NCBI RefSeq assembly: GCF_014280175.1
Contig: NZ_CP047931.1
Span: 1-32,000, forward strand
Length of the DNA stretch: 32,000 nt
Origin: Synechococcus sp. A15-28
GTDB lineage: Bacteria; Cyanobacteriota; Cyanobacteriia; PCC-6307; Cyanobiaceae
Reading direction: 5' to 3'
Shown here piece after piece: positions 2,103 through 26,650 of the stretch; the stretch's first letter is position 1, and the number at the start of each line of letters is the position of its first letter. The notes under the pieces are model-generated. The model was not told the origin of the DNA. It worked only from the letters and a program-made list of their open reading frames with translations, and did no database searches. Position numbers and translations under genes: made by a program.

Positions 2103-4409
2103 GTGTCCTCCCCTGCCTACGACGACAGTGCGGCTCTGAAACAGGAAGGTCTGAAACCGTCGGATTGGCAGGAGATCTGTCGACGGCTTGGACGGGAGCC
2201 CAACCGTGCTGAGTTGGGGATGTTCGGAGTGATGTGGTCCGAACACTGCTGCTACCGCAATTCCAGGCCATTGCTGCGTGGGTTTCCAACGGAAGGCCCG
2301 CGGATTCTGGTGGGGCCGGGTGAGAACGCCGGTGTGGTCGATCTGGGGGATGGCCATCGCTTGGCTTTCAAGATTGAGAGCCACAACCACCCATCGGCGG
2401 TGGAGCCCTTTCAAGGGGCTGCCACCGGGGTCGGCGGGATTCTGCGGGACATCTTCACCATGGGAGCCCGCCCGATCGCGCTGCTGAACGCGTTGCGCTT
2501 CGGTCCGCTGGAGGATCCAGTCAACGTCGGGCTGATCGAGGGGGTTGTGGCCGGCATCGCCCATTACGGCAATTGCGTTGGCGTACCCACCGTCGGCGGG
2601 GAAGTGGCCTTTGATCCGTCCTACGGCGGCAATCCCCTGGTGAATGCCATGGCGCTGGGTCTGATGGAGACCGAGGAGATCGTCAAGTCCGGCGCCCAGG
2701 GGGTGGGTAATCCTGTGGTTTACGTGGGCAGCACCACGGGTCGGGATGGCATGGGCGGCGCCAGTTTCGCCAGTGCCGAACTCAGTGCCGACTCCCTGGA
2801 CGACCGTCCTGCGGTTCAGGTGGGCGATCCGTTTCTGGAGAAGGGGTTGATCGAGGCCTGTCTGGAGGCCTTCGCCAGTGGTGATGTGGTGGCGGCCCAG
2901 GACATGGGGGCTGCCGGACTCACCTGCAGTTGTTCGGAAATGGCGGCCAAAGGTGGCCTGGGGGTTGAACTCGACCTCGATCGCGTCCCGGCCCGCGAAG
3001 ACGGCATGACGGCCTACGAATTTCTGCTCTCGGAGTCCCAGGAGCGGATGTTGTTTGTGGTGAAGGCCGGTCGCGAGGAGGCGCTGATGCAGCGCTTCCG
3101 ACGCTGGGGTCTGCAGGCAGCCGTGGTGGGTCAGGTGCTGGAGGAACCGGTGGTGCGTGTGCTCCACCACGGCGAGGTGGCTGCTGAGGTGCCGGCCACC
3201 GCCCTGGCGGATGACACGCCGATTGAGCAGCACGCCCTGTTGCAGGAGCCCCCGGCGGATCTGCAGCAGCTCTGGCTATGGCAGGAGGGTCAGTTGCCTC
3301 CCTTAGAGGACCCATCGGCCGTGCTGTTGAAGCTGCTGGATGATCCAACCATCGCCAGCAAGCGCTGGGTGCATCGTCAGTACGACCAGCAGGTTCTCGC
3401 CAACACGGTGGTGTCCTCCGGCGCAGCAGATGCGGCTGTGGTGCGTTTGCGACCACAGCAGGGTCAGGGATCCATGGCAACCGTGCAGCGGGGGGTGGCT
3501 GCCACGGTGGATTGTCCGAATCGTTGGGTGGCTCTGGATCCCGAGCGTGGCGCTCAGGCCGCCGTGGCGGAAGCGGCCCGCAACCTGAGTTGCGTTGGTG
3601 CGGAACCGCTGGCGATCACCGACAACCTCAACTTCCCTTCACCCGAAACGCCCAAGGGCTACTGGCAGTTGGCCATGGCTTGTCGCGGGATTGCGGATGC
3701 CTGCCGTGCTCTGGACACACCCGTCACCGGTGGCAATGTCTCCCTCTACAACGAGACCCGTCGGGATGACGGCACGCTTCAACCGATCCATCCGACTCCA
3801 GTGATCGGCATGGTCGGTTTGGTGGAGGACATCGACCGGGTGGTCGGACTGGCTTGGCGTCAACCCGGTGATGCTGTGCTGTTGATGGGTGTTGCACCGG
3901 ATGAACAGGGGGATGACCGCCTTGGTCTTGCTGGCAGCAGCTATCAAATGCTGGTCAGTGGGGCGCTGGCAGGTCGTCCACCGCGGGTGGACTTTGATCT
4001 CGAACGCGGTGTACAGACGTTGTTGCGCCGGGCCATTGCTGCTGGGCTCCTGGCCTCCGCCCATGACAGCAGTGATGGCGGTCTCGCCATAGCCCTGGCG
4101 GAAAGCAGCATTGCGTCTGGTCTAAGCGTCGATCTGCGGTTTGACCTGCCGAGCGAAGGTCTGGCTCGGGCCCTGTTCGCCGAAGGTGGTGCGCGGGTGG
4201 CGATCTCCGTGAAGGCTGAGTGCCGGCAGCAGTGGGATCAGATGGCGGCTGAATCGATGGTCCCCATCACCGAACTCGGTGTGGTCACGGATGGTTCTGA
4301 ATTCCGGATCCAGTGCGGTGACAGGGATGTTCAGCTGTCTGTGGCTGATCTGAAGCGGGCCCATCAGGAGGGCTTGACGCGTCGGATCGGGGGTGAGGCA
4401 GAATCCTGA
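2103..4409 (+). CDS. purL: phosphoribosylformylglycinamidine synthase subunit PurL (FGAM synthase II)
   Basis: 768-aa ORF with GTG start. Motifs [26 protein letters not shown] and [25 protein letters not shown]. Confidence 0.95.
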
Positions 4410-4467
4410 AGGAAGTCTGAAGTCGAGGCGCTCAGTGCACGTGCTGGAGGCGGAGCGTCCCGATCGG

Positions 4468-5898
4468 ATGGAAGAGGCCTGCGGCGTCTTCGCCGTTCTG
4501 GCCGGAGAACAACCGGTGGCGAACCTGGCCTATTTCGGTCTGTATGCCCTGCAGCACCGAGGCCAGGAATCGGCTGGCATTGCGGTGTTCAACCAGGGCA
4601 AGGTGCGCCTCCACAAGGACATGGGGCTCGTCAGTCAGGTGTTTGACCAGGACGTGCTGGCCCGCATGCCGGGAGACCTGGCCATCGGGCATAACCGTTA
4701 CTCCACCACCGGCAGCAGTCGGGTGTGCAACGCCCAGCCCGTGGTGTTGATGACCCGTCTGGGTGCCTTTGCTCTCGCCCACAACGGCAATCTGGTGAAT
4801 GCCCGCGAGTTGCGGGAGCTGGTGGATGACGGACAGGCCGAGTTCACCTCGACGACGGATTCGGAACTGATCGCCTTTGCTGTGCAGCAGGCGGTGGACC
4901 GTGGTCTCGACTGGACAGCCGCCATTGAGGCCGCACTCAAGCTCTGTCGTGGTGCGTTCAGCCTTGTGATCGGAACGCCGGATGGCCTGTTCGCCGTGCG
5001 GGACGGTCATGGCATCCGCCCCTTGGTGTTTGGCACCTTGGGGGATTCAGCCTCCGGTCACTGGGTGGTGAGCAGTGAGACCTGTGGATTGGAGATCATC
5101 GGTGCCCGGTATGTGGACGATGTTCAGCCCGGTGAGTTGGTGCGCTTTGCGCTCGGTTCGTCCGAGCCTCAGCGTCGGCGCTGGAGTGAGGAACCGAATC
5201 GCCTGTGCGTGTTCGAAATGATCTATTTCGCCAGGCCGGACAGTCAGTTCTTCGGTGAATCTCTGTACAGCTACCGCCAGCGCATCGGTCGCACCCTTGC
5301 CCGTGAATCCTGTGTGGATGCTGATCTGGTGATTGGTGTCCCCGATTCAGGCATCCCTGCAGCCATCGGTTTCTCTCAGGAAAGCGGCATTCCCTACGGC
5401 GACGGGCTGATCAAGAACCGTTATGTCGGCCGTACTTTCATTCAGCCCACCCAGGCGATGCGGGAAGCGGGAATCCGGGTGAAATTGAACCCCCTGCCGG
5501 ATGTTCTTGCCGGCAAGCGATTGATCGTCATTGACGATTCGATCGTTCGTGGCACCACCAGTCGCAAATTGGTTGTGGCCCTGCGGGATGCCGGCGCTAC
5601 CGAGGTGCACATGCGGATTAGTTCACCGCCGGTCACCCATCCCTGCTTCTACGGGATCGACACCGACACCCAGGATCAACTGATTGCGGCACAGATGACC
5701 CTGGAACAGATCAAGGATCACCTCAAGGTGGAATCCCTTGCCTATCTGAGCAAGGAGGGAATGCTCGAGGCGGCGAAGGCTGAATCAGGTCATTTCTGCA
5801 GCGCCTGTTTCGACGGTCAGTACCCCATCCCCATGGACGAGAAGCTGTTGTCCAGCAAGTTGATGATGGAGCCAGCGGGGATTGCCGCCAGATCTTGA
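4468..5898 (+). CDS. purF: amidophosphoribosyltransferase
   Basis: N-terminal nucleophile Cys in MEEACGVFAV. PRTase loop RLIVIDDSIVRGTTS. C-terminal Cys ligands in CFYGID and CSACFDGQYP. The longest ORF starts at GTG 4393 and overlaps purL by 17 nt; GTG 4441 and ATG 4468 are alternatives. The stop at 5898 is secure. Confidence 0.9.
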   Translation: MEEACGVFAVLAGEQPVANLAYFGLYALQHRGQESAGIAVFNQGKVRLHKDMGLVSQVFDQDVLARMPGDLAIGHNRYSTTGSSRVCNAQPVVLMTRLGAFALAHNGNLVNARELRELVDDGQAEFTSTTDSELIAFAVQQAVDRGLDWTAAIEAALKLCRGAFSLVIGTPDGLFAVRDGHGIRPLVFGTLGDSASGHWVVSSETCGLEIIGARYVDDVQPGELVRFALGSSEPQRRRWSEEPNRLCVFEMIYFARPDSQFFGESLYSYRQRIGRTLARESCVDADLVIGVPDSGIPAAIGFSQESGIPYGDGLIKNRYVGRTFIQPTQAMREAGIRVKLNPLPDVLAGKRLIVIDDSIVRGTTSRKLVVALRDAGATEVHMRISSPPVTHPCFYGIDTDTQDQLIAAQMTLEQIKDHLKVESLAYLSKEGMLEAAKAESGHFCSACFDGQYPIPMDEKLLSSKLMMEPAGIAARS

Positions 5899-8373
5899 TC
5901 AGAGGGTCTGCAGGGCGACCATGGAAACAATCTGTTCGTTGCTGTCCAGAGTCAGTTGATCGCCCCAGGCCTTCCCCGCAGCAGCAAGCTCCACTGCGGC
6001 GGCGTCCAGCCGTCCATGACGCTTCTGATCGGTCACAATCCCAGCCAGCACATCTCCTGAACAGAGTCCGACAACGGAATCTTCATCTGAACTGAGGTGC
6101 ACCGCCATCATCCCCAGATCTCCGCGTTGACAACGCCGCAGCGGGGTCAGGTCGATTCGCGTCATCTGACCGTGACGGCTCACCAGCAGCAGGGTGGGAT
6201 CCGTCTCGGCAACGTTCATGGCCAGGCTGCCCACCAGTTCTTCCCCTGGAAGGAGACGCATAGTCATCGGCCCCTGGGCCAGACGTCCCATTTTGGGCAG
6301 CACGGAATCATTCACCGGCAGCCTCAGCAGACGACCCATGCTGCTGACCAGCACCAGGTCGCTGTGTTCACGGCAGATCACCGCAGAGCAAAGGCGCACG
6401 CCTTCCTTCAGCTTCACCATGCTCGTGGCTCGGCCGGAAAGATCCAGAACTTCCGTCAGGGGAAGCCGCTTGAAGCGTCCATCACTGCTGAGCAGGCCCA
6501 GGCTGAGCTCTTTGCCATCCCCCGTTGGGAGTTGTGTGATGGCGATCAGGGGATCACCATCAAGTCCACTTGGCAGAAACTTCTCCAGGGATCCAGGTTG
6601 TTGTCCGGCGAATTCCCAACGGATCAAAGCGACTCGACCACTGGCGCTCACCCCGAGAAGCCGCGGTGAGGGTTCGATCGGAAGGATGAGCTGTGCCGGT
6701 GAAGGATGGTCACCCACGGGACAGGCTTCAGACAGGTGCATGCGGCCCAGCACCTGGGGGCTGACCAGTTTCACCTGGCCATCGGCCTGGATCAGCAGGC
6801 GTGCATCGGCGGGCAGAGCCGCCAGGGCCTGCTGACGCAGCAGCTCGGTGTTGGGTCGCTGGCTGGCGGCCCGCTCCGCAATCAGGGCATCTCCGCCTTC
6901 CACCAGGCGTGTCCGACGCGGTGTGCTGAAGCGTTTTTTCAACGTCTTCAGTTCATCGACCATGGCATCGAGCAACTGATCGCGGTTGTCGAGCAACAGG
7001 CGTAACCGCTCCCGTTCCGCCCGTAACTCCTCCAGTTCCTGGCGCAGGCTCTCCTGTTCGAGACCCGTCAATCTGCGCAGTGGCATCGCCAGAACGGCAT
7101 CGGCCTGACGTTCACTCAGGTCGAGGCGCACCATCAGGCTGGCTCGGGCTGAGGCGGCATCCCGGGCCTCCTGAATCATCGTGATCACCGCTTGAAGGTT
7201 GTTCAGCGCGTTGATCAAGCCGTCGACCACCTCAAGTCGATCCTCTGTTTTGCGCAGGGCGTAGCTGGTGCGCCGGATCAGGGTCAGTTCCCTGTAATCC
7301 AGGAACGTCTGCAACAACTGACGCAACGAGAGCTGGCGTGGCTGACCATCCACAAGGGCCAGCAGGATGGCTCCGAAGTTGCTCTGCAGCGCTGTGCGTC
7401 GTTGCAGGTCCGCCAGCACCTTGGTCGGGTCCGCATCGCGGCGAAGCTCCACCACCACGCGCATGCCATCGCGGTCGCTCTCATCACGGATGTCGGCAAT
7501 GCCGCCGATCTTTCCGTCGTTCACCGATTCCGCCAGTTTTTCGATCCAGCCGGCTTTGCTCAGCTGATACGGAAGTTCCGTCACCACGACGGCGTTGCGT
7601 TTGTGACGCCCTTTCCCGGGTTGTACCTCTTCGATGTGGGCAACCCCCCGCATGGGGATGCTGCCGCGTCCGGCCAGGTAGGTGTCCTGTAAGCCACTGC
7701 TGAGCAGTACCTCTCCACCGGTCGGAAAATCGGGTCCCGGAATCAGGGCCAGCAGTTTGTTGTCGCCCAGTTCCGGCTGGCGAATCAAGGCCACCAGGCC
7801 GTCCACCACTTCACCGAGATTGTGAGGGGGAATGCTGGTGGCCATGCCCACGGCGATGCCCGAACAACCGTTGAGCAACAGGAAGGGCAGTTGCGCCGGC
7901 AGCACGGTGGGTTCCTGCTGGGACCCATCGAAATTCGGTGCGAAATCAACGGTGTCGTCGCCGATCTCCTCCAGCAGGGCCTGGTGGGCGATGGGAGCTA
8001 ACCGTGTTTCGGTGTATCGCATGGCGGCCGGCGGATCATCGTCCACCGATCCGAAGTTGCCATGGCCATCCAGCAGTGGGTGGCGACTGGCAAAGGTTTG
8101 AACAAGCCGGACCAAGGCGTCGTAAACCGCTTGATCGCCATGGGGGTGGTATTTGCCGAGGACGTCACCGACGACGCGGGCGCACTTCCGATAGGGGCGG
8201 TCCGGGGTGAGCCCCAGTTCCTGCATGGCATAGAGAATCCGGCGCTGAACCGGTTTCAGGCCGTCGCGGGCATCGGGCAGTGCCCGGCCCACGATCACGC
8301 TCATGGCGTATTCGAGGTAGGAGCGCTGCATCTCCTGATGCAGAGCAATCGATTCAACGCGCTCCTCAGCCAT
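5899..8373 (-). CDS. DNA gyrase/topoisomerase IV subunit A family protein (GyrA paralogue)
   Basis: 824-aa ORF with ATG at 8373. Motifs [11 protein letters not shown] and KYHPHGD, and active-site Tyr context AAMRYTE. A repetitive beta-pinwheel-like C-terminal third is present. I found no Q(R/K)RGG(K/R)G GyrA box. Confidence 0.9.
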
Positions 8374-16856: not shown

Positions 16857-17519
16857 GTGAGCATTTTTGTCGGCAACCTTCCCTTCCGCGCTGAGCAGGA
16901 GGATGTCATTGAACTGTTTGCCCAGTTCGGCGAAGTCGCGAACTGTGCCCTTCCCCTGGAGCGGGACACCGGTCGAAAGCGTGGTTTTGCCTTTGTCGAG
17001 ATGGCTGATGAAGCCGTTGAAGACGCCGCGATTGAAGGGCTTCAGGGTGCTGAGCTGATGGGTCGCCCTCTTCGCATCAACAAAGCTGAGCCCCGCGGCA
17101 GCGCACCTCGTCGTGGTGGCGGTGGTTATGGCGGCGGCGGTGGTGGCGGTGGTGGCTACCGCGGCGGTGGTGGAGATGGTGGTTACGGCGGTGGCGGCGG
17201 TGGTGGCTACCGCGGCGGCGGTGGAGATGGTGGTTACGGCGGTGGCGGCGGCGGTGGCTACCGCGGTGGCGGTGGAGATGGTGGTTACGGCGGTGGCGGC
17301 GGCGGTGGCTACCGCGGTGGCGGTGGTTACGGCGGTGGTGGAGATGCCGGCGAACGGCGTTCCGGTGCCCGTGGCTGGGAAGACCGCAGCTATGGCGCCC
17401 GCGACAACGCTGGTGAAGCTGGTGGTGGAGATGACGACGGTCGCAGCCGTCGCCGTCGTGGCTCCTCCACCGGTGGTGGTGGCGACGATTATTCCGGATA
17501 TGGAGGTGCTGAGGGCTGA
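16857..17519 (+). CDS. RRM-type RNA-binding protein with long Gly/Tyr/Arg-rich tail
   Basis: 220-aa ORF. GTG is the only start after the in-frame upstream TGA at 16806-16808. RNP2 is IFVGNL and RNP1 is KRGFAFVEM. The C-terminal ~130 aa are low-complexity GGGYRGGGGDGGY repeats followed by an R/D/G/S-rich end. Confidence 0.9.
   Translation: MSIFVGNLPFRAEQEDVIELFAQFGEVANCALPLERDTGRKRGFAFVEMADEAVEDAAIEGLQGAELMGRPLRINKAEPRGSAPRRGGGGYGGGGGGGGGYRGGGGDGGYGGGGGGGYRGGGGDGGYGGGGGGGYRGGGGDGGYGGGGGGGYRGGGGYGGGGDAGERRSGARGWEDRSYGARDNAGEAGGGDDDGRSRRRRGSSTGGGGDDYSGYGGAEG
17151..17335 (+). repeat. 51-bp (17-codon) tandem repeat, three near-identical copies plus a fourth partial copy with a 9-nt deletion
   Basis: The TAC of the YRGG unit recurs at 17157, 17208, 17259 and 17310, an exact 51-nt period. 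Copies 1-3 differ only at synonymous GGC/GGT positions. Confidence 0.9.
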
Positions 17520-18552: not shown

Positions 18553-19071
18553 GTGGCAATGGCGCTCAACGCTGTGTTTCTGTCCCGTCGTTCCCTATTG
18601 TTGGGTTCCATCGCCGGTGCCTTCGGCAGCAGCTGGTGGCCGCGGCCGGTGCTGGCGGCATCAAAAGCAACTGATGCAAGCTGGGATCTCAGTGCAGAGC
18701 AGTGGCGTCAGCGCTTGTCACCCGAGGCCTACGACGTGCTGCGCAATGAGGGCACCGAGCGGCCGTTCACCAGTCCATTGAATGATGAGAAGCGCAGTGG
18801 CACGTTCCACTGCGCCGGTTGCGATCAGCCGTTGTTCTCCTCGGAGGCGAAGTTCGACAGCGGCACCGGTTGGCCGAGCTTCTGGCAGCCGTTGCAGGGT
18901 GGCATCGCGACGAAAGTAGATTTCAAATTGATCATTCCCCGTACGGAATACCACTGCAGCCGCTGCGGTGGGCATCAGGGCCACGTGTTCAATGACGGAC
19001 CCCGACCGACGGGCAAGCGCTACTGCAACAACGGCGTCGCCCTTGTCTTCCGACCCGCAGACTCAGTTTGA
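18553..19071 (+). CDS. msrB: peptide-methionine (R)-S-oxide reductase MsrB with Tat-type signal peptide
   Basis: SelR/MsrB motifs: two Zn CxxC pairs (CAGC, CSRC), GTGWPSF, HQGHVFNDGP, and catalytic Cys in RYCNNG. N-terminus carries LSRRSLLLGSIAGAFG...VLAAS. Start is GTG 18553 or ATG 18559. Confidence 0.9.
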   Translation: MAMALNAVFLSRRSLLLGSIAGAFGSSWWPRPVLAASKATDASWDLSAEQWRQRLSPEAYDVLRNEGTERPFTSPLNDEKRSGTFHCAGCDQPLFSSEAKFDSGTGWPSFWQPLQGGIATKVDFKLIIPRTEYHCSRCGGHQGHVFNDGPRPTGKRYCNNGVALVFRPADSV

Positions 19072-20314
19072 TTTTCTCGTCGTCGGTGGTGGTGCTGCCG
19101 GCTTCATGGCGGCGATCACAGCCGCCGAACAGGGGCTACAGCGAGTCCTGGTGCTGGAAGCCACGCCGGAGCCCCTGTCCAAGGTTCGATTGAGTGGAGG
19201 CGGTCGCTGCAACGTGACCCATGCCTGTTGGGATCCAACCGAGCTGGTGGGTCACTACCCCAGGGGTCAGCGGCCCCTGCGGGGGCCATTCAGTCGTTTT
19301 GCCAGTGGTGATGCCGTTGCATGGTTCGCTGATCGCGGCCTGGATCTGGTGGAGGAGGACGACGGCCGCATGTTTCCTCAGGCCAATCGCTCGTCCGCAG
19401 TGGTGAATTGCCTGCGGCAGGCCGCGAAACGGTCCGGGGTTCAGCTGATCACAGGTTCTGCGGTTCAAGCCGTGGCCGGCGACATCAGCGGTGGGTTCGT
19501 GGCCTCCTGTCGCGGTGGTGGCAGGTTTCATGCAAAGCGCGTGCTGTTGGCTACGGGAGGACACCCCAGTGGACGACGGTTGGCGGGCCAGCTGGGCCAT
19601 CGGTTGATCCCCCCGGTGCCTTCCCTGTTTTCATTGACGTTGGATGCTCCCCAGTTGCTGGGTTGCGCCGGCATCGCCCTCGATGATGTGGCGCTCACGC
19701 TCGAGGTGGGAGACGAGCGCTTCCACCAGGTCGGTCGGGTGCTGATCACCCACTGGGGTCTCAGTGGACCGGCGACGTTGCGGCTTACGGCCTTCGCCGC
19801 CAGGGCCCTTCAGGCATCGCGTTACCGCGCGACGTTGAGTGTGAGCTGGTGCGCTGGTTGGTCCCAGGGGGATCTCCTGGCTGCGTTGCGGAACCAGCGA
19901 ACCCAGGCTGCTCGTCGCACCCTCGTTGCTTCACGACCATTGGCCGCTCATCTGCCACGACGACTTTGGATCTCGATGTTGGAGGAGGTTGGTGTCGCTG
20001 CTGATCAGCGCTGGGCGGACTGTCCAGCGAAGTTGGAGAGGGGGCTCTTCGATCGGTTGCAGCAATGTCGTTATCCCGTGAAGGGTCGCGGACCATTTGG
20101 GGAGGAATTCGTGACCGCTGGTGGCGTGGATCTGGGTGAAATCAACCTGGCCACCATGGAGAGCCGCTGCTGCCCCGGTTTGCATCTGGCGGGTGAGTTG
20201 ATGGATGTGGATGGGGTCACAGGCGGCTTCAACTTTCAGCACTGCTGGACCAGTGGTTGGCTCGCCGGCCAGTCCGTTGCCGAGCAGCTCACTGGATCTG
20301 ATCGAACACTGTGA
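18992..20314 (+). CDS. HI0933-like / aminoacetone-oxidase-family FAD-dependent oxidoreductase
   Basis: Rossmann motif FDFLVVGGGAAGFMAAITAAE and C-terminal GGFNFQHCWTSGWLAG. Candidate in-frame starts are GTG 18968, ATG 18992 and TTG 19043, all inside msrB. The stop at 20314 is secure. Confidence 0.8.
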   Translation: MTDPDRRASATATTASPLSSDPQTQFDFLVVGGGAAGFMAAITAAEQGLQRVLVLEATPEPLSKVRLSGGGRCNVTHACWDPTELVGHYPRGQRPLRGPFSRFASGDAVAWFADRGLDLVEEDDGRMFPQANRSSAVVNCLRQAAKRSGVQLITGSAVQAVAGDISGGFVASCRGGGRFHAKRVLLATGGHPSGRRLAGQLGHRLIPPVPSLFSLTLDAPQLLGCAGIALDDVALTLEVGDERFHQVGRVLITHWGLSGPATLRLTAFAARALQASRYRATLSVSWCAGWSQGDLLAALRNQRTQAARRTLVASRPLAAHLPRRLWISMLEEVGVAADQRWADCPAKLERGLFDRLQQCRYPVKGRGPFGEEFVTAGGVDLGEINLATMESRCCPGLHLAGELMDVDGVTGGFNFQHCWTSGWLAGQSVAEQLTGSDRTL

Positions 20315-21479
20315 ACATCGGCAGATACATAGCCAGAAGAATCGATCCGACAATGCCTCCCACCACCACGATCATTGCGGGCTCCAGCATGGAGGTGAGT
20401 GCCTTCACCATGGCTCCGACTTCGTCTTCGTAGAAATCAGCGACCTTGCTGAGCATCTTGTCCATCTCACCGGTTTCTTCGCCGATGGCCAACATGTTGA
20501 GCGCCATATCGGGGAGCACTTTCTGACGAATCAAGGCTGTGCTGAGCAGAACGCCCTCCTGCACCATCGTTCTTGAGGCCAGGATTGCATCAGAAATGAT
20601 CGAGTTCCCTGCGGTCTGACTGGAGATTTCCATGGACATCAAGATGGGAACACCGGCGCGGGTTAGGGAGCTGAAGATTCGACAGAACTGGGCGGTGGCG
20701 GTCATCAGAATCAGCTCACCGAACAGCGGCAGCTTGAGGATCAGTCGGTCGATGACCCGTCGTCCGTTGTGGGTTCCGTAATAACGCGCGAACAGCCAGA
20801 TGATCAGCAGCAGGGCTCCAACGAAATACAGAGCCACTGTTGATCGCAGGAGTTCACTGAAATTCACCAGCAACTGTGTGAATGCGGGGAGTTCGGCCCC
20901 CAGATCTTCAAAGATTCCGGCGAAGGTAGGAATCAGGAAAATGGTCATCCCCAGAAACACCAGGATCGCGATCACCAGAACGGCAACGGGATAGCCAAGG
21001 GCTCCCTTGATCTGGTTCTGCAGCTTGGCGTTGTCTTCCAGAAGTTTGGCCAGCGGTTTCATTGCTTCATCCAGAACGCCTCCGGCTTCGCCGGCTTCCA
21101 CCATGGCGATGCTGAGCTGATCGAAAACCTTGGGCCACTCCCGAATCGCGCTGCCCAGGGCGATTCCCTCGTTGACATCCAGGCTCACCTTGGTCAGCGC
21201 CCGCTTGAACATCGGCAGCTTCTGCTGGGTCGCCATCAGATCCAGGCTGCGCACGATCGGAACGCCGGCATCCACAAGTGCCGCCAGCTTGCTGGCGAAA
21301 ACCGCTTTCTCCTTGACGCCTGGAGCCTTCTCGAAGGTCGTGCCGAGGTCGATGGAGAACAAGCTCTTGCCCTCGCCGGAGCCGTCAGCCCCGTTGTTCT
21401 GACCGGAAGGAGCAGGTCGCAGCTCTGTGGCTCGAATTCCACGACGGCGAAGCTGTTTGCGGGCGTCTGCCAGATCCAC
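20289..21479 (-). CDS. pilC: type IV pilus assembly platform protein PilC (GspF family)
   Basis: 396-aa ORF from GTG 21479. It has two T2SSF-type repeats, several hydrophobic helices, GEETGEMDKML, and a C-terminal LLAMYLPMF. Conserved N-terminal sequence continues upstream to at least 21551 without a canonical start (see findings). Confidence 0.9.
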   Translation of the reverse strand: MDLADARKQLRRRGIRATELRPAPSGQNNGADGSGEGKSLFSIDLGTTFEKAPGVKEKAVFASKLAALVDAGVPIVRSLDLMATQQKLPMFKRALTKVSLDVNEGIALGSAIREWPKVFDQLSIAMVEAGEAGGVLDEAMKPLAKLLEDNAKLQNQIKGALGYPVAVLVIAILVFLGMTIFLIPTFAGIFEDLGAELPAFTQLLVNFSELLRSTVALYFVGALLLIIWLFARYYGTHNGRRVIDRLILKLPLFGELILMTATAQFCRIFSSLTRAGVPILMSMEISSQTAGNSIISDAILASRTMVQEGVLLSTALIRQKVLPDMALNMLAIGEETGEMDKMLSKVADFYEDEVGAMVKALTSMLEPAMIVVVGGIVGSILLAMYLPMFTVFDQIQ

Positions 21480-21563
21480 GGCCTTGATTGTCAGGTTGCG
21501 GGGTTGACCGCTTGGACCGGCATACGTGGCGAGGAACGACGGTTCGTTCAGTTCAGCCCTTGA

Positions 21564-22640
21564 TCATTCATGGCCAATCAGGCGTTGCAGTTCGCCTGGT
21601 TTGCTCGCTTTTGCCATGGCTTCGGTCTGGCTCACATCGCCGCGGTTCACCAGGTCAGCCAGCGCTTTTTCCAGGGTCTGCATTCCTTGCTCGCCACCGG
21701 TCTGAATCTGGGAATAAAGCTGAGCGGTCTTGCCTTCGCGGATGAGATTTGCGGTGGCCGGGGTGTTGATCAGGATCTCCTGAGCCATCACCCGTCCGAA
21801 TTGCCCTGGTTTTGGATCGTGGCGCTTGCAGAGGGTCTGTGAAAACACGGCCACCAAGCTGCCGGAGAGTTGAACGCGGACCTGGGTCTGTTGTTCCGGT
21901 GGGAATACATCGACCATCCGGTCCACGGTCTGCGCCGCCGAACTGGTGTGCAGCGTTCCGAACACAAGGTGTCCGGTCTCCGCAGCGCTGACTGCCAGTT
22001 GGATGGTTTCCAGATCCCGAATTTCCCCCACCAGGATCACGTCGGGGTCCTCCCGCAGAGCAGCGCGGAGGGCATTGGCGAAACTGCGGGTGTCCTCATT
22101 GAGCTGGCGCTGATGTACCAGGCTCTTGTCGCTCTGATAAACAAACTCAATCGGGTCCTCGATGGTGAGGATGTGTTCGCTGCGGGTGTGATTGATGTGG
22201 TCCAACAGGGCTGCCAGCGTCGTGGTTTTGCCCGACCCTGTGGGACCTGTCACCAGCACCAGTCCCCGCGGGCGTTTGCTGGTCTCCAGCACCACGGGCG
22301 GCAGGTTCAGAAGCTCAACGCTTGGGATCTTGCTGCCGAGGGCCCGGAGACAGGCGGCATAGCTTCCCTTCTTCCGGTAGACGTTGACCCGGAACCGTGC
22401 CACCCCTTTCAGGCCATAGGCGCAGTCCAGTTCCCAGGTCTGCTCCAGGGTTTTGCGTTGACTGTTGTTCAGCATCGAGAAGATCAGCTTGTTGCAGTCC
22501 TCCTCCTCCAGAGGGTCGTCCCGCATCGGCCGCAGCTCACCGCTGAAACGTTCGTAGGGAGGCTGACCGCTGGCGATGTGCAGATCGCTGCCGCCTGCCT
22601 CCACCAGTTGCTCCATCAGATCCTCGATCATCAGATCCAT
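21564..22640 (-). CDS. pilT: type IV pilus retraction ATPase PilT
   Basis: 358-aa ORF with ATG at 22640. Walker A GPTGSGKTTT, Walker B DVILVGEIRD, His box TGHLVFGTLHT, and ANLIREGK motif. Confidence 0.93.
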   Translation of the reverse strand: MDLMIEDLMEQLVEAGGSDLHIASGQPPYERFSGELRPMRDDPLEEEDCNKLIFSMLNNSQRKTLEQTWELDCAYGLKGVARFRVNVYRKKGSYAACLRALGSKIPSVELLNLPPVVLETSKRPRGLVLVTGPTGSGKTTTLAALLDHINHTRSEHILTIEDPIEFVYQSDKSLVHQRQLNEDTRSFANALRAALREDPDVILVGEIRDLETIQLAVSAAETGHLVFGTLHTSSAAQTVDRMVDVFPPEQQTQVRVQLSGSLVAVFSQTLCKRHDPKPGQFGRVMAQEILINTPATANLIREGKTAQLYSQIQTGGEQGMQTLEKALADLVNRGDVSQTEAMAKASKPGELQRLIGHE

Positions 22641-22650
22641 GTCGCCAGTC

Positions 22651-24324
22651 TCAATCTCGGGTGGTTAGGCAATAAGGACACTCCAGCCAGCTCTCCTGGA
22701 GACCAGCGCCGCATCCCTTGCAGGTCATTGTGCTGAGAGCGCGTGCTCTGCGCTCGGATTCCAGGCCTGAGTCGGTGAGGATCATTCGCCCAACTTCTTC
22801 CAGCGTGGTGTGACCCTGTCGGACGAGATCCAGGCTGTAGCCGAGAAGAGTCACCATCCCTGACTCGAGCGCGAGTTGACGGATCACATCGGTGGAGGCG
22901 CCTGAGGAAACGGCTGTGGCCAGCTCCTCATTCATGCGCAGCACTTCGTAGACACCCACGCGGCCCTTGTAACCACTGCCTTTGCAATTGGGGCAGGTCT
23001 TGCCGCTGCCGTCATGGCGATGGGCCCTGAAAAAGGTCACATCGCTTTCCGTGCTGGCCATCAGGCCGAAGCGACCAAGTTCTCGCTCATCCGGCCGGTA
23101 CGGTTCCCGGCACGTCGGGCAAACGCGTCGCATCAGCCGTTGGGACACGATGCCGATCAGGGCTGCCGACACCATGAAGGTCTCCACCCCCATCTCATCC
23201 AGTCGGGCGATGGTGCTGGGGGCGTCATTGGCGTGAAGGGTGCTCAGCACCAGGTGGCCGGTGAGGGCGGCTTCGATGGCGGTTTTCGCTGTCTCCAGAT
23301 CGCGGGTCTCCCCGACCAGCAGCACATCCGGGTCCTGGCGCATGAATGCCCTCAGGGCAGTGGCGAAATCGAATCCCTTGTCGCGATTCACCTGGCACTG
23401 CGTGATGCCCGGCAGCGTGTACTCAATCGGATCCTCCACCGTGGAGATGTTGATGCCGGGGTCGTTGCGTTCCGCCAGCAGGGAATAGAGGGTGGTGGAT
23501 TTGCCTGAGCCGGTGGGCCCTGTGACCAGAATCATGCCGAAGGGTTTGGCCCCCAGATCCCGCACAAGAGCGAGGGTGGCGGGATTGGAGATCAGCTTGT
23601 CCAGGCCCAGTTGCGTGGCGCTGCTGTCCAGCAGTCGCAGACAAACCTTTTCGCCGAAGCGGCTGGGCAGGGTGTTGACCCTGAAATCCACCACCCGGTC
23701 CCGGTAGCGGCGACTGATCCTGCCGTCCTGAGCCTGGCGTCGCTCAGCGATATCGAGGTCCGCCAGGATCTTGAAGCGGGAGGTCACCGCTGGGATCAAC
23801 CGGTTAGGAAGCGGCTCCACGTACTGCTGGAGCACACCGTCCTGGCGGTAGCGCAGACGGAGACCCTTCTGTTGCGGCTCCACATGGATGTCGGAGGCGC
23901 CCACGGACATGGCCTGCAGCAGGATGCGATCCACCAGGGCCACCACCGGTGATGCATCAGGGTCCTCAAGGCTGGATTCCAGATCAACGGCATTGGCGGA
24001 CAGGGCTGCCTCTTCGTCTTCTGCGGTCTCCAGCACCCCTTCGGCGTTGAAGTCTTCGAGGAACGAGGATGCTTCGTCTTCGAGGGACAACTGGCTCTCA
24101 GTCCTGTTTTGACTTGGCTGACTGGTTGTTATCGCTTGAGTTTCACGGGGAGCTTCACCAGGTGCTGACGGGGTAGATCGTTCCGATGGTTCAGTCGCCA
24201 GAGCACGCCGCAGATCGTCATGCAGCGTCGGGTGCAGACGGATGGTTCGGTCATTCGGCGGCAGTTGATCGATCAGGGCTTGCCATTCCGTTTCACCCCA
24301 CTGGCTGGGAATCGCGATGTCCAA
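22651..24324 (-). CDS. pilB: type IV pilus assembly ATPase PilB (GspE family); longest uninterrupted ORF
   Basis: 557-aa ORF. Walker A GPTGSGKSTT, GETRDLETA, TGHLVLSTLHAN, and the tetracysteine CPTC...CPNCKGSGYKGR. The TTG start at 24324 is only the first start after an in-frame TAG, and the frame stays open to ATG 24522. Confidence 0.9.
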   Translation of the reverse strand: MDIAIPSQWGETEWQALIDQLPPNDRTIRLHPTLHDDLRRALATEPSERSTPSAPGEAPRETQAITTSQPSQNRTESQLSLEDEASSFLEDFNAEGVLETAEDEEAALSANAVDLESSLEDPDASPVVALVDRILLQAMSVGASDIHVEPQQKGLRLRYRQDGVLQQYVEPLPNRLIPAVTSRFKILADLDIAERRQAQDGRISRRYRDRVVDFRVNTLPSRFGEKVCLRLLDSSATQLGLDKLISNPATLALVRDLGAKPFGMILVTGPTGSGKSTTLYSLLAERNDPGINISTVEDPIEYTLPGITQCQVNRDKGFDFATALRAFMRQDPDVLLVGETRDLETAKTAIEAALTGHLVLSTLHANDAPSTIARLDEMGVETFMVSAALIGIVSQRLMRRVCPTCREPYRPDERELGRFGLMASTESDVTFFRAHRHDGSGKTCPNCKGSGYKGRVGVYEVLRMNEELATAVSSGASTDVIRQLALESGMVTLLGYSLDLVRQGHTTLEEVGRMILTDSGLESERRARALSTMTCKGCGAGLQESWLECPYCLTTRD

Positions 24325-24369
24325 TTGGTGCTGATCAACCGCGATCGGCAGGGCCTGCAGGTCGCGCTA

Positions 24370-24522
24370 GCGCTCAGGGCTGATGTCATTCAGGGCGTTG
24401 AGCAGCGGCAGCGCTCGTTCCAGTTGCTCGGGATCCGGCACCGGCTGTTTCAGTAACAGCTCCAGTTCCAGCCGCTGCTGGGCGGCATCGTTGGTGGCAG
24501 GAATGGGCCGGCCCAGGGTCAT
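24370..24522 (-). other. pilB: 51-codon 5' segment in the pilB frame, upstream of the in-frame TAG (24367-24369)
   Basis: My hand translation gives MTLGRPIPATNDAAQQRLELELLLKQPVPDPEQLERALPLLNALNDISPER, with G/C-rich third positions. It is contiguous in frame with RDLQALPIAVDQHQLDIAIP after the TAG. Confidence 0.65.
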
Positions 24523-25278: not shown

Positions 25279-26411
25279 TGGCGGATTACTACGACCTGCT
25301 GGGGGTCGGACGGGATGCGGATGCCGACACGTTGAAGCGGGCTTACCGCAGCAAGGCGCGCAAGTTTCACCCCGACATCAACAAGGAACCGGGAGCCGAA
25401 GACCGCTTCAAGGAAATCGGTCGCGCCTATGAGGTGCTGAGTGACCCCCAGACCCGGGCCCGCTACGACCAGTTCGGTGAGGCCGGCCTTGGCGGTGCAG
25501 CCGGTGCTCCGGATATGGGGGACATGGGCGGCTTTGCCGACCTGTTCGAGACCTTCTTCCAGGGCTTTGGAGGCCCGGGTGGTGCTGCCGGCGGTCGCTC
25601 CAGCCGTCGTGGACCCCAGCAGGGAGACGATCTTCGCTACGACCTCACCATCGATTTCGAGCAGGCGGTCTTCGGTCAGGAGCAGGAGATCAAGATCCCC
25701 CACCTCGAAACCTGTGACACCTGCGGTGGCAGCGGAGCGAAGGCGGGCAGTGGTCCCACCACCTGCGGTACCTGTGGTGGAGCCGGCCAGGTTCGACGGG
25801 CGACCCGGACCCCCTTCGGCAGCTTCACCCAGGTGGCGGAATGCCCCAACTGCGGCGGCACCGGTCAGGTGATCGCTGATCCCTGCAATGCCTGCGGCGG
25901 CCAGGGTGTGCATCAGGTGCGCAAGAAACTTCGGATCAACATTCCTGCCGGAGTGGACACAGGAACGCGCCTGCGGGTTTCGGGTGAGGGCAATGCCGGA
26001 CCGCGGGGAGGCCCGTCCGGTGACCTCTACGTTTTCCTGACGGTCAAGTCACACCCGCGCCTGCGCAGGGATGGTCTCAACATCCTCTCCACCGTGAACG
26101 TCAGTTATCTGCAGGCGATCCTGGGGGACACGATCGAGGTGGAAACCGTCGATGGCGATACGCCCCTTGAAATTCCGCCCGGCACCCAGCCCGGTACCGT
26201 GCTGACCCTCGCCAACAAAGGCATTCCCAAGCTCGGGAACCCAGTGGCCCGAGGTGATCAGAAGGTGCAGGTGACGGTGCAGCTCCCCACGCGTCTGTCG
26301 GACCCCGAACGGACACTGCTGGAGGAGTTGGCGGGCCATCATTCGGCCCGTGGCAAGCAGCATCACCATCACAACAGCGGACTGTTCGCTCGGCTGTTCG
26401 GCCAGAAGTGA
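25278..26411 (+). CDS. dnaJ: molecular chaperone DnaJ
   Basis: J-domain with HPD (KFHPDINK), a G/F-rich region, and four CxxCxGxG zinc-finger repeats. ATG overlaps the grpE TGA (TGATG). Confidence 0.96.
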
Positions 26412-26650
26412 TGGGGACGGCCCGTTCCCTGGATCTGCGTGGCACCCCCTGCCCGGTGAATTTCATCCGTTGCAAGCTGGCCCTCGAGTCACTTCAGGCT
26501 GGAGATCAGCTTCAGGTGCAGTTGGATCGGGGCGAACCGGAAGCGACGGTGATTCCTGGGCTCCAGGATGCCGGTCACCGGGTGGAGGTCACCGCTGAGG
26601 AAGCGACCTGGGTTGCATTGGAGATCACCTGTGCCGGTGAGCTGTCGTGA
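26411..26650 (+). CDS. TusA/SirA-like small sulfur-carrier-family protein
   Basis: 79-80 aa. LDLRGTPCPVNFIRCKLALESL carries the conserved Cys-Pro of the TusA fold, followed by GDQLQV...D...GH. ATG 26411 overlaps the dnaJ TGA by 1 nt; GTG 26408 is an alternative. Confidence 0.75.
   Translation: MGTARSLDLRGTPCPVNFIRCKLALESLQAGDQLQVQLDRGEPEATVIPGLQDAGHRVEVTAEEATWVALEITCAGELS

What the first reader, a model, noticed from the sequence alone, without database searches (positions are those of the whole stretch)
24325..24522. pilB reading frame continues 51 codons upstream through a single in-frame TAG (24367-24369)
On the minus strand the pilB frame reads ATG(24522) MTLGRPIPATNDAAQQRLELELLLKQPVPDPEQLERALPLLNALNDISPER, then TAG, then RDLQALPIAVDQHQ-L(TTG 24324)-DIAIPSQWGETEW. 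I translated this by hand. The upstream codons keep the G/C third-position bias of real genes in this window. The stretch across the stop (ISPER*RDLQALPIAVDQHQLDIAIP) resembles the 'ip..a.....lP......l.vA...P' core of the GspE/PilB N-terminal domain (T2SSE_N). The 557-aa TTG-initiated ORF would truncate that domain. Four explanations are possible.
(a) pilB is split or inactivated by a nonsense mutation, for example in a non-piliated variant.
(b) The TAG is a sequencing or assembly error.
(c) Two polypeptides are made.
(d) The amber codon is read through.
The answer determines whether this strain can extend type IV pili.
Basis: partly seen in the sequence, partly recalled or inferred. Interest (0 to 1): 0.7.

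Follow-up and report, generated by a model that had tools for sequence, protein, structure and literature searches.

The report
Broken pilus motor gene pilB
In the marine cyanobacterium Synechococcus sp. A15-28, one G-to-A change turns a strictly conserved tryptophan codon of the pilus-extension motor gene pilB into a stop; it is one of several defects in a decaying pilB-pilT-pilC operon, so this is an ordinary pseudogene, not recoding.

Summary
On the minus strand, ATG 24522 opens 51 codons, then TAG (24367-24369), then 14 sense codons, then the 557-aa TTG ORF. Together they make a 623-codon pilB, colinear with intact 623-aa orthologues.

All 15 closest relatives examined (96.6-99.6% nt identity) have TGG at this codon. 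Trp52 is invariant in an 18-sequence alignment and lies inside a GSPII/MshEN-fold N-terminal domain.

The window is the first 32 kb of the closed, Illumina-based genome of Synechococcus sp. A15-28 (clade III). GenBank already lists the two pieces as separate CDSs.

The TAG is not an isolated oddity:
- pilC has lost its ATG.
- PilB, PilT and PilC carry six private replacements at positions invariant or nearly so in about 35-43 species.
- Private changes are 8 non-silent to 2 silent in the pil genes, against 5 to 21 in flanking housekeeping genes (p=0.001).

The same operon is frameshifted or deleted in other closed genomes and MAGs. A published survey lists no PilQ for A15-28.

Best reading: a genuine nonsense mutation in an operon under relaxed selection. 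Sequencing error, functional reinitiation and amber readthrough are unlikely. Interest is low to moderate.

The parts
24370..24522 (-). pilB codons 1-51: the native start ATG 24522 and the first half of the GSPII/MshEN-fold N-terminal domain. GenBank annotates it as the 51-aa CDS QNI41072.1.
   Evidence: It is identical to residues 1-51 of P0001 and of the 623-aa orthologues.
24367..24369 (-). TAG nonsense codon replacing Trp52 (TGG). The change is G>A on the coding strand, which is T instead of C at + strand position 24368.
   Evidence: all 15 close relatives examined have TGG. W52 is invariant in 18 sequences. W in 24 of 28 species orthologues.
24325..24366 (-). pilB codons 53-66, in frame between the TAG and the first possible restart codon.
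   Evidence: identical to the orthologues' residues 53-66.
22651..24324 (-). The rest of pilB, as the 557-aa TTG ORF (GenBank QNI41071.1). It holds the remainder of the N-terminal domain, the linker and the T2SSE ATPase, and has no further stop or frameshift. It carries the private replacement R270S (codon 23713-23715) at a position where 43 of 43 orthologues have R.
   Evidence: (PF00437, E=1e-118).
21564..22640 (-). pilT (358 aa), uninterrupted. It has three private replacements at positions invariant or nearly so: G30E (22551-22553), Q90K (22371-22373) and M207I (22020-22022).
20289..21545 (-). pilC (418 codons in relatives). Its start codon is destroyed: relatives read ...AACGATGCCG..., the window reads ...AACGA-ACCG..., so 21543-21545 is GAA. 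The first remaining in-frame ATG/GTG/TTG is GTG 21479, 22 codons in. Private replacements L162M and R164P fall at invariant positions.
   Evidence: the published table lists PilC of A15-28 starting VDLADARK.

Best explanation
pilB of Synechococcus sp. A15-28 is a pseudogene. A G-to-A transition changed the invariant Trp52 codon (TGG) to TAG, so translation from the native ATG 24522 stops after 51 residues, in the middle of the N-terminal GSPII/MshEN-fold domain. This is a real mutation that belongs to the ongoing decay of the whole pilB-pilT-pilC operon in this lineage. pilC has also lost its start codon, and all three proteins carry replacements at otherwise invariant positions. Selection to keep the type IV pilus extension machinery has lapsed here, as it has repeatedly in related marine Synechococcus. 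Shown: the lesion, its uniqueness to this genome, the companion lesions, the excess of non-silent changes, and the parallel decay elsewhere. Inferred: that no functional PilB is made, that the strain cannot extend pili with this operon, and that the decay predates isolation in culture.
For: (1) The TAG replaces TGG in all 15 closest relatives examined, which are 96.6-99.6% identical in DNA. Trp52 is one of nine invariant columns in the 18-sequence N-terminal alignment.
(2) Orthologues are uninterrupted 612-638-codon genes that begin at the equivalent ATG.
(3) Codon 52 lies in helix 49-54 of a confidently modelled domain (pLDDT 71-85). That domain matches MshE-N 5HTL, PilF GSPII-A, XpsE-N and the X. 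citri PilB N-terminus.
(4) There is a second lesion: the pilC ATG is destroyed (M1 in 31 of 31 orthologues).
(5) Private codon changes are 8 non-silent to 2 silent in pilB/T/C, against 5 to 21 in 11 flanking genes with private changes (Fisher p=0.0013). Among relatives the pil genes are under purifying selection, with 176 silent and 51 non-silent polymorphic codons (p=3e-4).
(6) Six private pil replacements hit positions invariant or nearly so in 34-43 species: PilB R270; PilT G30, Q90, M207; PilC L162, R164. Private replacements in rsgA, murB and murC hit variable positions.
(7) The source is a closed genome from Illumina paired-end plus mate-pair data. Consensus substitution errors in such assemblies are rare (general knowledge).
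(8) Decay of the same syntenic operon recurs elsewhere. CP047947.1 has frameshifts in pilB, pilT and pilC. CP047949.1 joins pilB to pilC with pilT gone. Two near-identical MAG contigs carry different deletions, one at an 8-bp direct repeat. Nonsense codons occur in L017 (TGG>TGA at W75), L018 and L091. dnaJ, rsgA, murB and murC are intact in about 36 of 36 loci.
(9) Supplementary Data 1 of PMC7994388 lists no PilQ, PilE or PilA2 for A15-28.
Against: - No reads were available, so the single base at 24368 cannot be verified directly.
- Apart from W52* and R270S the pilB ORF is uninterrupted, so a truncated product from a restart codon cannot be excluded.
- pilT is an uninterrupted ORF, and pilC could still start at GTG 21479 or at a rare CTG three codons upstream of the lost ATG.
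- The counts behind the selection test are small (10 against 26 changes). One of the eight 'non-silent' pil changes (PilC R224Q) is a return to the common state, not a derived defect.
- Whether a second pilB paralogue exists elsewhere in the genome was not testable from a 32-kb window.
- No phenotype data for A15-28 were found.
Confidence: 0.85

Rival explanations
1. Sequencing or assembly error: the strain really has TGG, and the A in TAG is a consensus mistake.
For: The TAG allele is private to this record. It appears in none of the 15 close relatives, nor in the only JGI metagenome match. No reads could be inspected.
Against: The genome is a closed assembly from Illumina paired-end plus mate-pair data with manual finishing. 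The same 4.2-kb operon carries a destroyed pilC start and six replacements at invariant or near-invariant sites. Flanking genes show only the silent-dominated divergence expected of real evolution. Errors would not cluster in one operon and spare its neighbours.
Confidence: 0.05
2. Two polypeptides or reinitiation: ribosomes terminate at the TAG and restart at TTG 24324 (or later). This would yield an N-terminally truncated PilB (lacking residues 1-65 or more) that still powers pilus extension, possibly alongside the 51-aa peptide.
For: The restart codon lies only 42 nt downstream of the stop. The ATPase part has no further stop or frameshift and scores E=1e-118 against PF00437. GenBank annotates both pieces as CDSs.
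Against: There is no Shine-Dalgarno-like sequence before TTG 24324. The product would lack helices 13-54 of a domain whose fold needs them. No relative has this arrangement, so it is not a selected architecture. R270S, the loss of the pilC start and the absence of PilQ in the published table argue that the machine is not maintained.
Confidence: 0.07
3. Amber readthrough or suppression: the TAG is decoded as a sense codon, by programmed readthrough or a suppressor tRNA, giving full-length PilB.
For: None of 29 genes in the window ends in TAG (28 TGA, 1 TAA). The window alone therefore does not show TAG acting as a terminator in this genome.
Against: TAG is simply a rare stop in marine Synechococcus (20 of 271 ORFs in orthologous loci), and zero of 29 is not significant. 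No tRNA gene lies in the window. The stop is not conserved in any relative, which programmed recoding would require. No other in-frame TAG interrupts a gene in the window.
Confidence: 0.03

Closest known systems
PilB, the type IVa pilus extension ATPase of the pilCTB operon of marine Synechococcus (described for WH7803 in PMC7994388); solved homologues are Geobacter PilB 5TSH and 5ZFR
   Same: It has the same syntenic operon (pilB-pilT-pilC next to grpE-dnaJ). PF00437 scores E=1e-118. The Walker A motif (GPTGSGKST) and the tetracysteine region can be read in the ORF. The modelled segment 190-270 is 52-55% identical to Geobacter PilB.
   Different: The gene is interrupted at codon 52 and carries R270S at an invariant position. 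It is a pseudogene copy of the family, not a variant enzyme.
MshEN / GSPII (T2SSE_N, PF05157) N-terminal domain, e.g. V. cholerae MshE 5HTL, T. thermophilus PilF GSPII-A 9G1W, XpsE-N 2D27
   Same: The fold of residues about 11-110 matches: Foldseek probability 1.0, 95-100 aligned columns and target-normalised TM 0.5 to 5HTL. PF05157 hits 10 of 18 orthologues.
   Different: The 24-residue c-di-GMP-binding motif of PMC5013675 is absent, in strict and relaxed form, from all 18 marine Synechococcus sequences. In this respect the domain resembles the non-binding XpsE type. The window's own sequence is below the Pfam gathering score.
Degraded pilBTC operons in other closed marine Synechococcus genomes (CP047947.1, CP047949.1) and in MAG contigs L001 and L084
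   Same: The locus and the outcome are the same: loss of the extension motor, by frameshifts, nonsense codons or deletions.
   Different: A15-28 is at an earlier stage. It has one nonsense codon and one start-codon loss, with no frameshift or large deletion.
Programmed stop-codon readthrough or amber suppression
   Same: The only shared feature is an in-frame TAG with a continuing reading frame.
   Different: The stop is not conserved in relatives. No suppressor tRNA or recoding signal was found. The replaced codon is an ordinary TGG in every other genome.

Membership tests
GspE/PilB secretion ATPase (PF00437 T2SSE) | Significant match to the T2SSE ATPase profile over its full length | tested here: met
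   E=1.1e-118, 396.5 bits against a cut-off of 24.9; residues 189-578 cover profile positions 4-369 of 370.
GspE/PilB secretion ATPase (PF00437 T2SSE) | Uninterrupted reading frame giving a full-length protein, as in orthologues | tested here: not met
   TAG at codon 52, whereas relatives have an uninterrupted 623-aa gene.
Type IVa pilus pilB-pilT-pilC operon | pilB followed by pilT (T2SSE) and pilC (T2SSF) on the same strand | tested here: met
   pilT at 21564-22640 and pilC at 20289-21545, minus strand. Relatives' products hit PF00437 and PF00482.
MshEN / GSPII N-terminal domain (PF05157) | Profile match above Pfam's gathering score | tested here: inconclusive
   The window sequence scores 16.0-16.3 bits against a cut-off of 23.1 (E about 0.01).
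MshEN / GSPII N-terminal domain (PF05157) | GSPII fold | tested here: met
   a model of the TGG-bearing twin P0001 has pLDDT 71-85 over residues 11-110. Foldseek hits include 5HTL, 9G1W, 2D27 and 7LKO.
c-di-GMP-binding MshEN | The 24-residue motif RLGxx(L/V/I)(L/V/I)xxG(L/V/I)(L/V/I)xxxxLxxxLxxQ, or the relaxed form given in PMC5013675 | tested here: not met
   no match in any of 18 sequences. The window reads RLELELLLKQPVPDPEQLERALPL, with both motif glycines replaced.
Pseudogene under relaxed selection | Disabling lesion relative to intact orthologues, plus an excess of non-silent changes at conserved sites specific to the lineage | tested here: met
Programmed readthrough / recoding site | Conservation of the in-frame stop among relatives | tested here: not met
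   every relative has TGG.
Programmed readthrough / recoding site | Suppressor tRNA or full-length product | not testable with these tools
   Only 32 kb of the genome is available and it holds no tRNA gene. No proteomics data are available.

The most novel reading that the evidence does not exclude
The lesions could be a selected off-state instead of neutral decay. Marine Synechococcus lineages would repeatedly shut down piliation, for example to lower phage encounter, through easily reverted point mutations at Trp codons: TGG>TAG here and TGG>TGA at W75 in L017. A15-28 would then be a recently switched-off, still revertible variant, or would keep partial function through a reinitiated truncated PilB. 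The evidence does not exclude recurrent positive selection for loss. The private changes in A15-28 fit neutral decay equally well.
Probability: 0.1. Interest if true: 0.5.

Novelty: new member of a known kind. Interest (0 to 1): 0.25.

Why it matters
For this strain, the result predicts that A15-28 cannot extend type IV pili with this operon. Clade III A15-28 also lacks the swmA/swmB swimming genes, according to PMC7522525.

More generally, it shows that presence/absence surveys based on BLAST or HMM hits over-count functional pili. The published table of PMC7994388 lists the truncated PilB and PilC ORFs of A15-28 as present.

The same operon is broken by different lesions in several closed genomes and MAGs. 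Loss of piliation is therefore a recurrent, ongoing process in oceanic Synechococcus. That fits the reported patchiness of pili in clades II and III, and the proposed cost of pili through higher phage encounter (bioRxiv 10.1101/2025.09.20.677514).

None of this is mechanistically new.

Tried and rejected
- Exact-product look-ups for PilT and the 557-aa ORF in the contig index found nothing. The source was identified later through cluster membership.
- A profile of the N-terminal domain against PDB sequences gave only a non-significant top hit to 5HTL (E=0.15). The fold comparison was needed to settle the domain question.
I re-ran it with P0001 and database hits.
- A scan of JGI metagenome contigs for either allele found a single contig, with TGG. 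There is therefore no independent sighting of the TAG allele.
- I considered whether the absence of TAG stops in the window hinted at reassignment. I rejected this because TAG is a rare stop in related loci, and no other in-frame TAG interrupts a window gene.
- The HI0933-like gene showed 'stops' in several species loci in my tblastn screen. I did not follow this up and did not use it as a control.
- One apparent private replacement (PilC R224Q) proved to be the common state in other species. It should not be counted as damage.

Full report
**1. Observation**

On the minus strand, ATG 24522 opens a 51-codon ORF (MTLGRP...ISPER) that ends at TAG 24367-24369. The same frame continues through 14 sense codons to TTG 24324, which opens a 557-aa ORF ending at 22651. 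The joined reading is 623 codons plus a stop. GC3 is 0.76, 0.79 and 0.72 for the three segments.

**2. The upstream segment is real pilB coding sequence**

- The conceptual N-terminus finds orthologues over its whole length. The best hit, P0001, is 100% identical over 269 residues and has Trp where the window has the stop.
- Six metagenome contigs carrying an identical DnaJ and 96.6-99.5% identical DNA each have a called, uninterrupted 623-aa pilB that begins at the equivalent ATG.
- Most species-representative genomes of marine Synechococcus show a single-frame match to residues 1-622.

**3. The codon that was hit**

- All 15 close relatives examined have TGG at this codon. The change is a G>A transition on the coding strand, at window position 24368.
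- Trp52 is one of only nine invariant columns in an 18-sequence alignment of the N-terminal 130 residues. It is W in 24 of 28 species orthologues that align there.

**4. The domain**

- PF00437 (T2SSE) covers residues 189-578 at E=1e-118.
- The window's N-terminus scores only 16 bits against PF05157/MshEN (cut-off 23.1) over residues 27-108. Ten of 18 orthologues hit that family, with best E=5e-11.
- I modelled P0001, the TGG-bearing twin, with AlphaFold. Residues 11-110 form a confident domain (pLDDT 71-85), and Trp52 sits in helix 49-54.
- Foldseek matches this domain to MshE-N 5HTL (95-100 columns, probability 1.0), PilF GSPII-A, XpsE-N and the PilZ-binding N-terminus of X. citri PilB.
- The c-di-GMP-binding motif defined in PMC5013675 is absent from all 18 sequences. 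This is a non-canonical, probably non-binding version of the domain.

**5. Source of the window**

- Exact-sequence look-ups identify the window as Synechococcus sp. A15-28, a closed chromosome of 2,341,586 bp.
- GenBank already lists the 51-aa piece (QNI41072.1) and the 557-aa piece (QNI41071.1) as separate CDSs. RefSeq has a 51-aa model and a 537-aa model.
- PMC7522525 describes the sequencing as Illumina paired-end plus mate-pair, with a CLC assembly and manual finishing. Numbering starts 174 bp before dnaN, which matches the first ORF of the window at 174-1331.
- A15-28 belongs to sub-cluster 5.1, clade III.

**6. The TAG is not alone**

I compared the window with up to 13 relatives over 15-32 kb and kept only the changes private to the window.

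| Genes | Silent | Non-silent | Details |
|---|---|---|---|
| pilC | 1 | 3 | L162M, R164P, R224Q |
| pilT | 0 | 3 | G30E, Q90K, M207I |
| pilB | 1 | 2 | W52*, R270S |
| All three pil genes | 2 | 8 | |
| 11 flanking housekeeping genes with private changes | 21 | 5 | |

- The contrast between pil and flanking genes gives Fisher p=0.0013.
- Among the relatives themselves, pil polymorphism is mostly silent (176 silent against 51 non-silent codons). The operon is normally under purifying selection, and the window lineage differs from that pattern at p=3e-4.
- The pilC start codon is also destroyed. Relatives read AACGATGCCG and the window reads AACGA-ACCG, leaving GTG 21479 as the first standard start, 22 codons in.
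- Across 31-43 species orthologues the affected positions are invariant or nearly so: PilB R270 43/43; PilT G30 38/38, Q90 38/38, M207 36/37; PilC M1 31/31, L162 34/34, R164 34/34.
- PilC R224Q is a return to the common residue and should not be counted as damage. The private replacements in rsgA, murB and murC fall on variable positions.
- Random sequencing errors would not concentrate in one operon and spare its neighbours. About ten private changes in 4.2 kb is also far more than could arise during a decade or two of culture (my inference from ordinary bacterial mutation rates). The decay therefore most likely predates isolation.

**7. The same operon decays elsewhere**

- CP047947.1 (L099, closed genome) has at least two frameshifts and a stop in pilB, and one frameshift each in pilT and pilC.
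- CP047949.1 (L100, closed genome) joins pilB residue 408 to pilC residue 207, with pilT gone. dnaJ is intact in both genomes.
- Two near-identical MAG contigs carry different large deletions. L001 joins window 23713 to 20643. L084/L089 joins 23940 to 20369, at an 8-bp CCACCACC direct repeat.
- L017 has TGG>TGA at the other conserved Trp (W75). L018 has a TAG at codon 340. L091 has a nonsense codon in pilT.
- In the species-representative loci, pilB is broken by a stop or frameshift in 4 of about 37. dnaJ, rsgA, murB and murC are never broken.

**8. Literature context**

- PMC7994388 shows that pili let marine Synechococcus stay suspended and evade grazers. It describes the pilCTB operon and reports lower pilA1 prevalence in clades II and III.
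- Its Supplementary Data 1 lists, for A15-28, a weak PilA1 hit, no PilE, no PilA2 and empty PilQ columns. It lists PilC starting at VDLADARK and PilB starting at LDIAIPSQ, which are the truncated ORFs scored as present.
- PMC7522525 notes that A15-24 and A15-28 are the only clade III strains lacking swmA/swmB.
- A 2025 preprint argues that pili raise phage encounter, which is a cost that could favour loss.

**9. Alternatives**

- Sequencing error cannot be excluded for the single base without reads. It is unlikely given the platform and the companion lesions.
- Reinitiation at TTG 24324 is physically possible, since it lies 42 nt downstream. However, it has no Shine-Dalgarno-like sequence, it would truncate a folded domain, and no relative shares the arrangement.
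- Readthrough has no support. The window holds no tRNA gene, the stop is not conserved, and no other in-frame TAG interrupts a gene.
- The lack of TAG terminators among 29 window genes reflects the rarity of TAG in this group (20 of 271).

**10. Verdict**

This is a confirmed observation and a correct domain reading, with an ordinary explanation. pilB carries a nonsense mutation at an invariant Trp codon, in an operon that is being lost. It is a new instance of a well-known kind, pseudogenisation. The split is already visible in the public annotation, although the literature scored the gene as present. Interest is low to moderate. Its main value is as a caution for pilus surveys and as one datum in a recurrent pattern of pilus loss.

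Noticed in passing
window 21543-21546 (minus strand); pilC 20289-21545: The pilC start codon ATG is replaced by GAA through a TG>A change (one base lost). All 31 species orthologues that align at this position, and the three close relatives read directly, keep Met1. The first standard start left is GTG 21479.
   Followed up: yes
window about 26637 (3' end of the tusA-like gene 26408-26650): There is a private 1-bp deletion in the stop codon (relatives GGT TGA, window GGT GAG CTG TCG TGA). It adds three residues (ELS) and makes the gene overlap the rsgA start. It looks benign.
   Followed up: partly
L001 6807-6812 (window 23713 joined to 20643) and L084 about 1663 (window 20369 joined to 23940): Two contigs at least 99.4% identical to the window, from different assemblies, carry different deletions of about 3.1-3.6 kb. 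Each removes the pilB 3' part, pilT and the pilC 5' part. The L084 junction lies in an 8-bp CCACCACC direct repeat. The L001 junction shows no clear microhomology and could be an assembly chimera.
   Followed up: partly
L099 (CP047947.1) 3877-8114; L100 (CP047949.1) 4001-5702: Two other closed Synechococcus genomes have the syntenic pilBTC operon in advanced decay. In L099 all three genes are frameshifted. In L100 pilB is fused to the pilC 3' half and pilT is absent.
   Followed up: partly
L017 codon 76 of pilB; L018 codon 340; L091 pilT codon 280: These are independent nonsense codons in pil genes of other assemblies. L017 is TGG>TGA at the second conserved Trp of the N-terminal domain. That contig is binned as 'Methanobacteriota archaeon' but is clearly Synechococcus DNA.
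   Followed up: partly
window, all 29 inferred genes: Stop-codon use is 28 TGA, 1 TAA and 0 TAG. This is more TGA-biased than orthologous loci of other marine Synechococcus (204 TGA, 47 TAA, 20 TAG).
   Followed up: partly
window 16857-17519 (RRM_1 protein gene): The length of this RNA-binding-protein gene varies among near-identical relatives (188-208 aa called). BLAST alignments overlap around 17186-17275, which suggests a variable internal repeat.
   Followed up: no
window 18968-20314 (HI0933-like flavoprotein) and its orthologues in L010, L016, L023, L031, L037, L038: The gene is called with different starts (402 or 440 aa) in relatives and overlaps msrB and pilC. My tblastn screen flagged stops or frameshifts in several species loci. 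These could be artefacts of alignment past gene ends or real lesions.
   Followed up: no
window 24367-24522 and 22651-24324; public records QNI41072.1, QNI41071.1, WP_186587140.1, WP_286187966.1: Public annotation treats the two pilB fragments as independent protein-coding genes, not as one pseudogene. Supplementary Data 1 of PMC7994388 scores PilB and PilC as present in A15-28 on that basis.
   Followed up: yes
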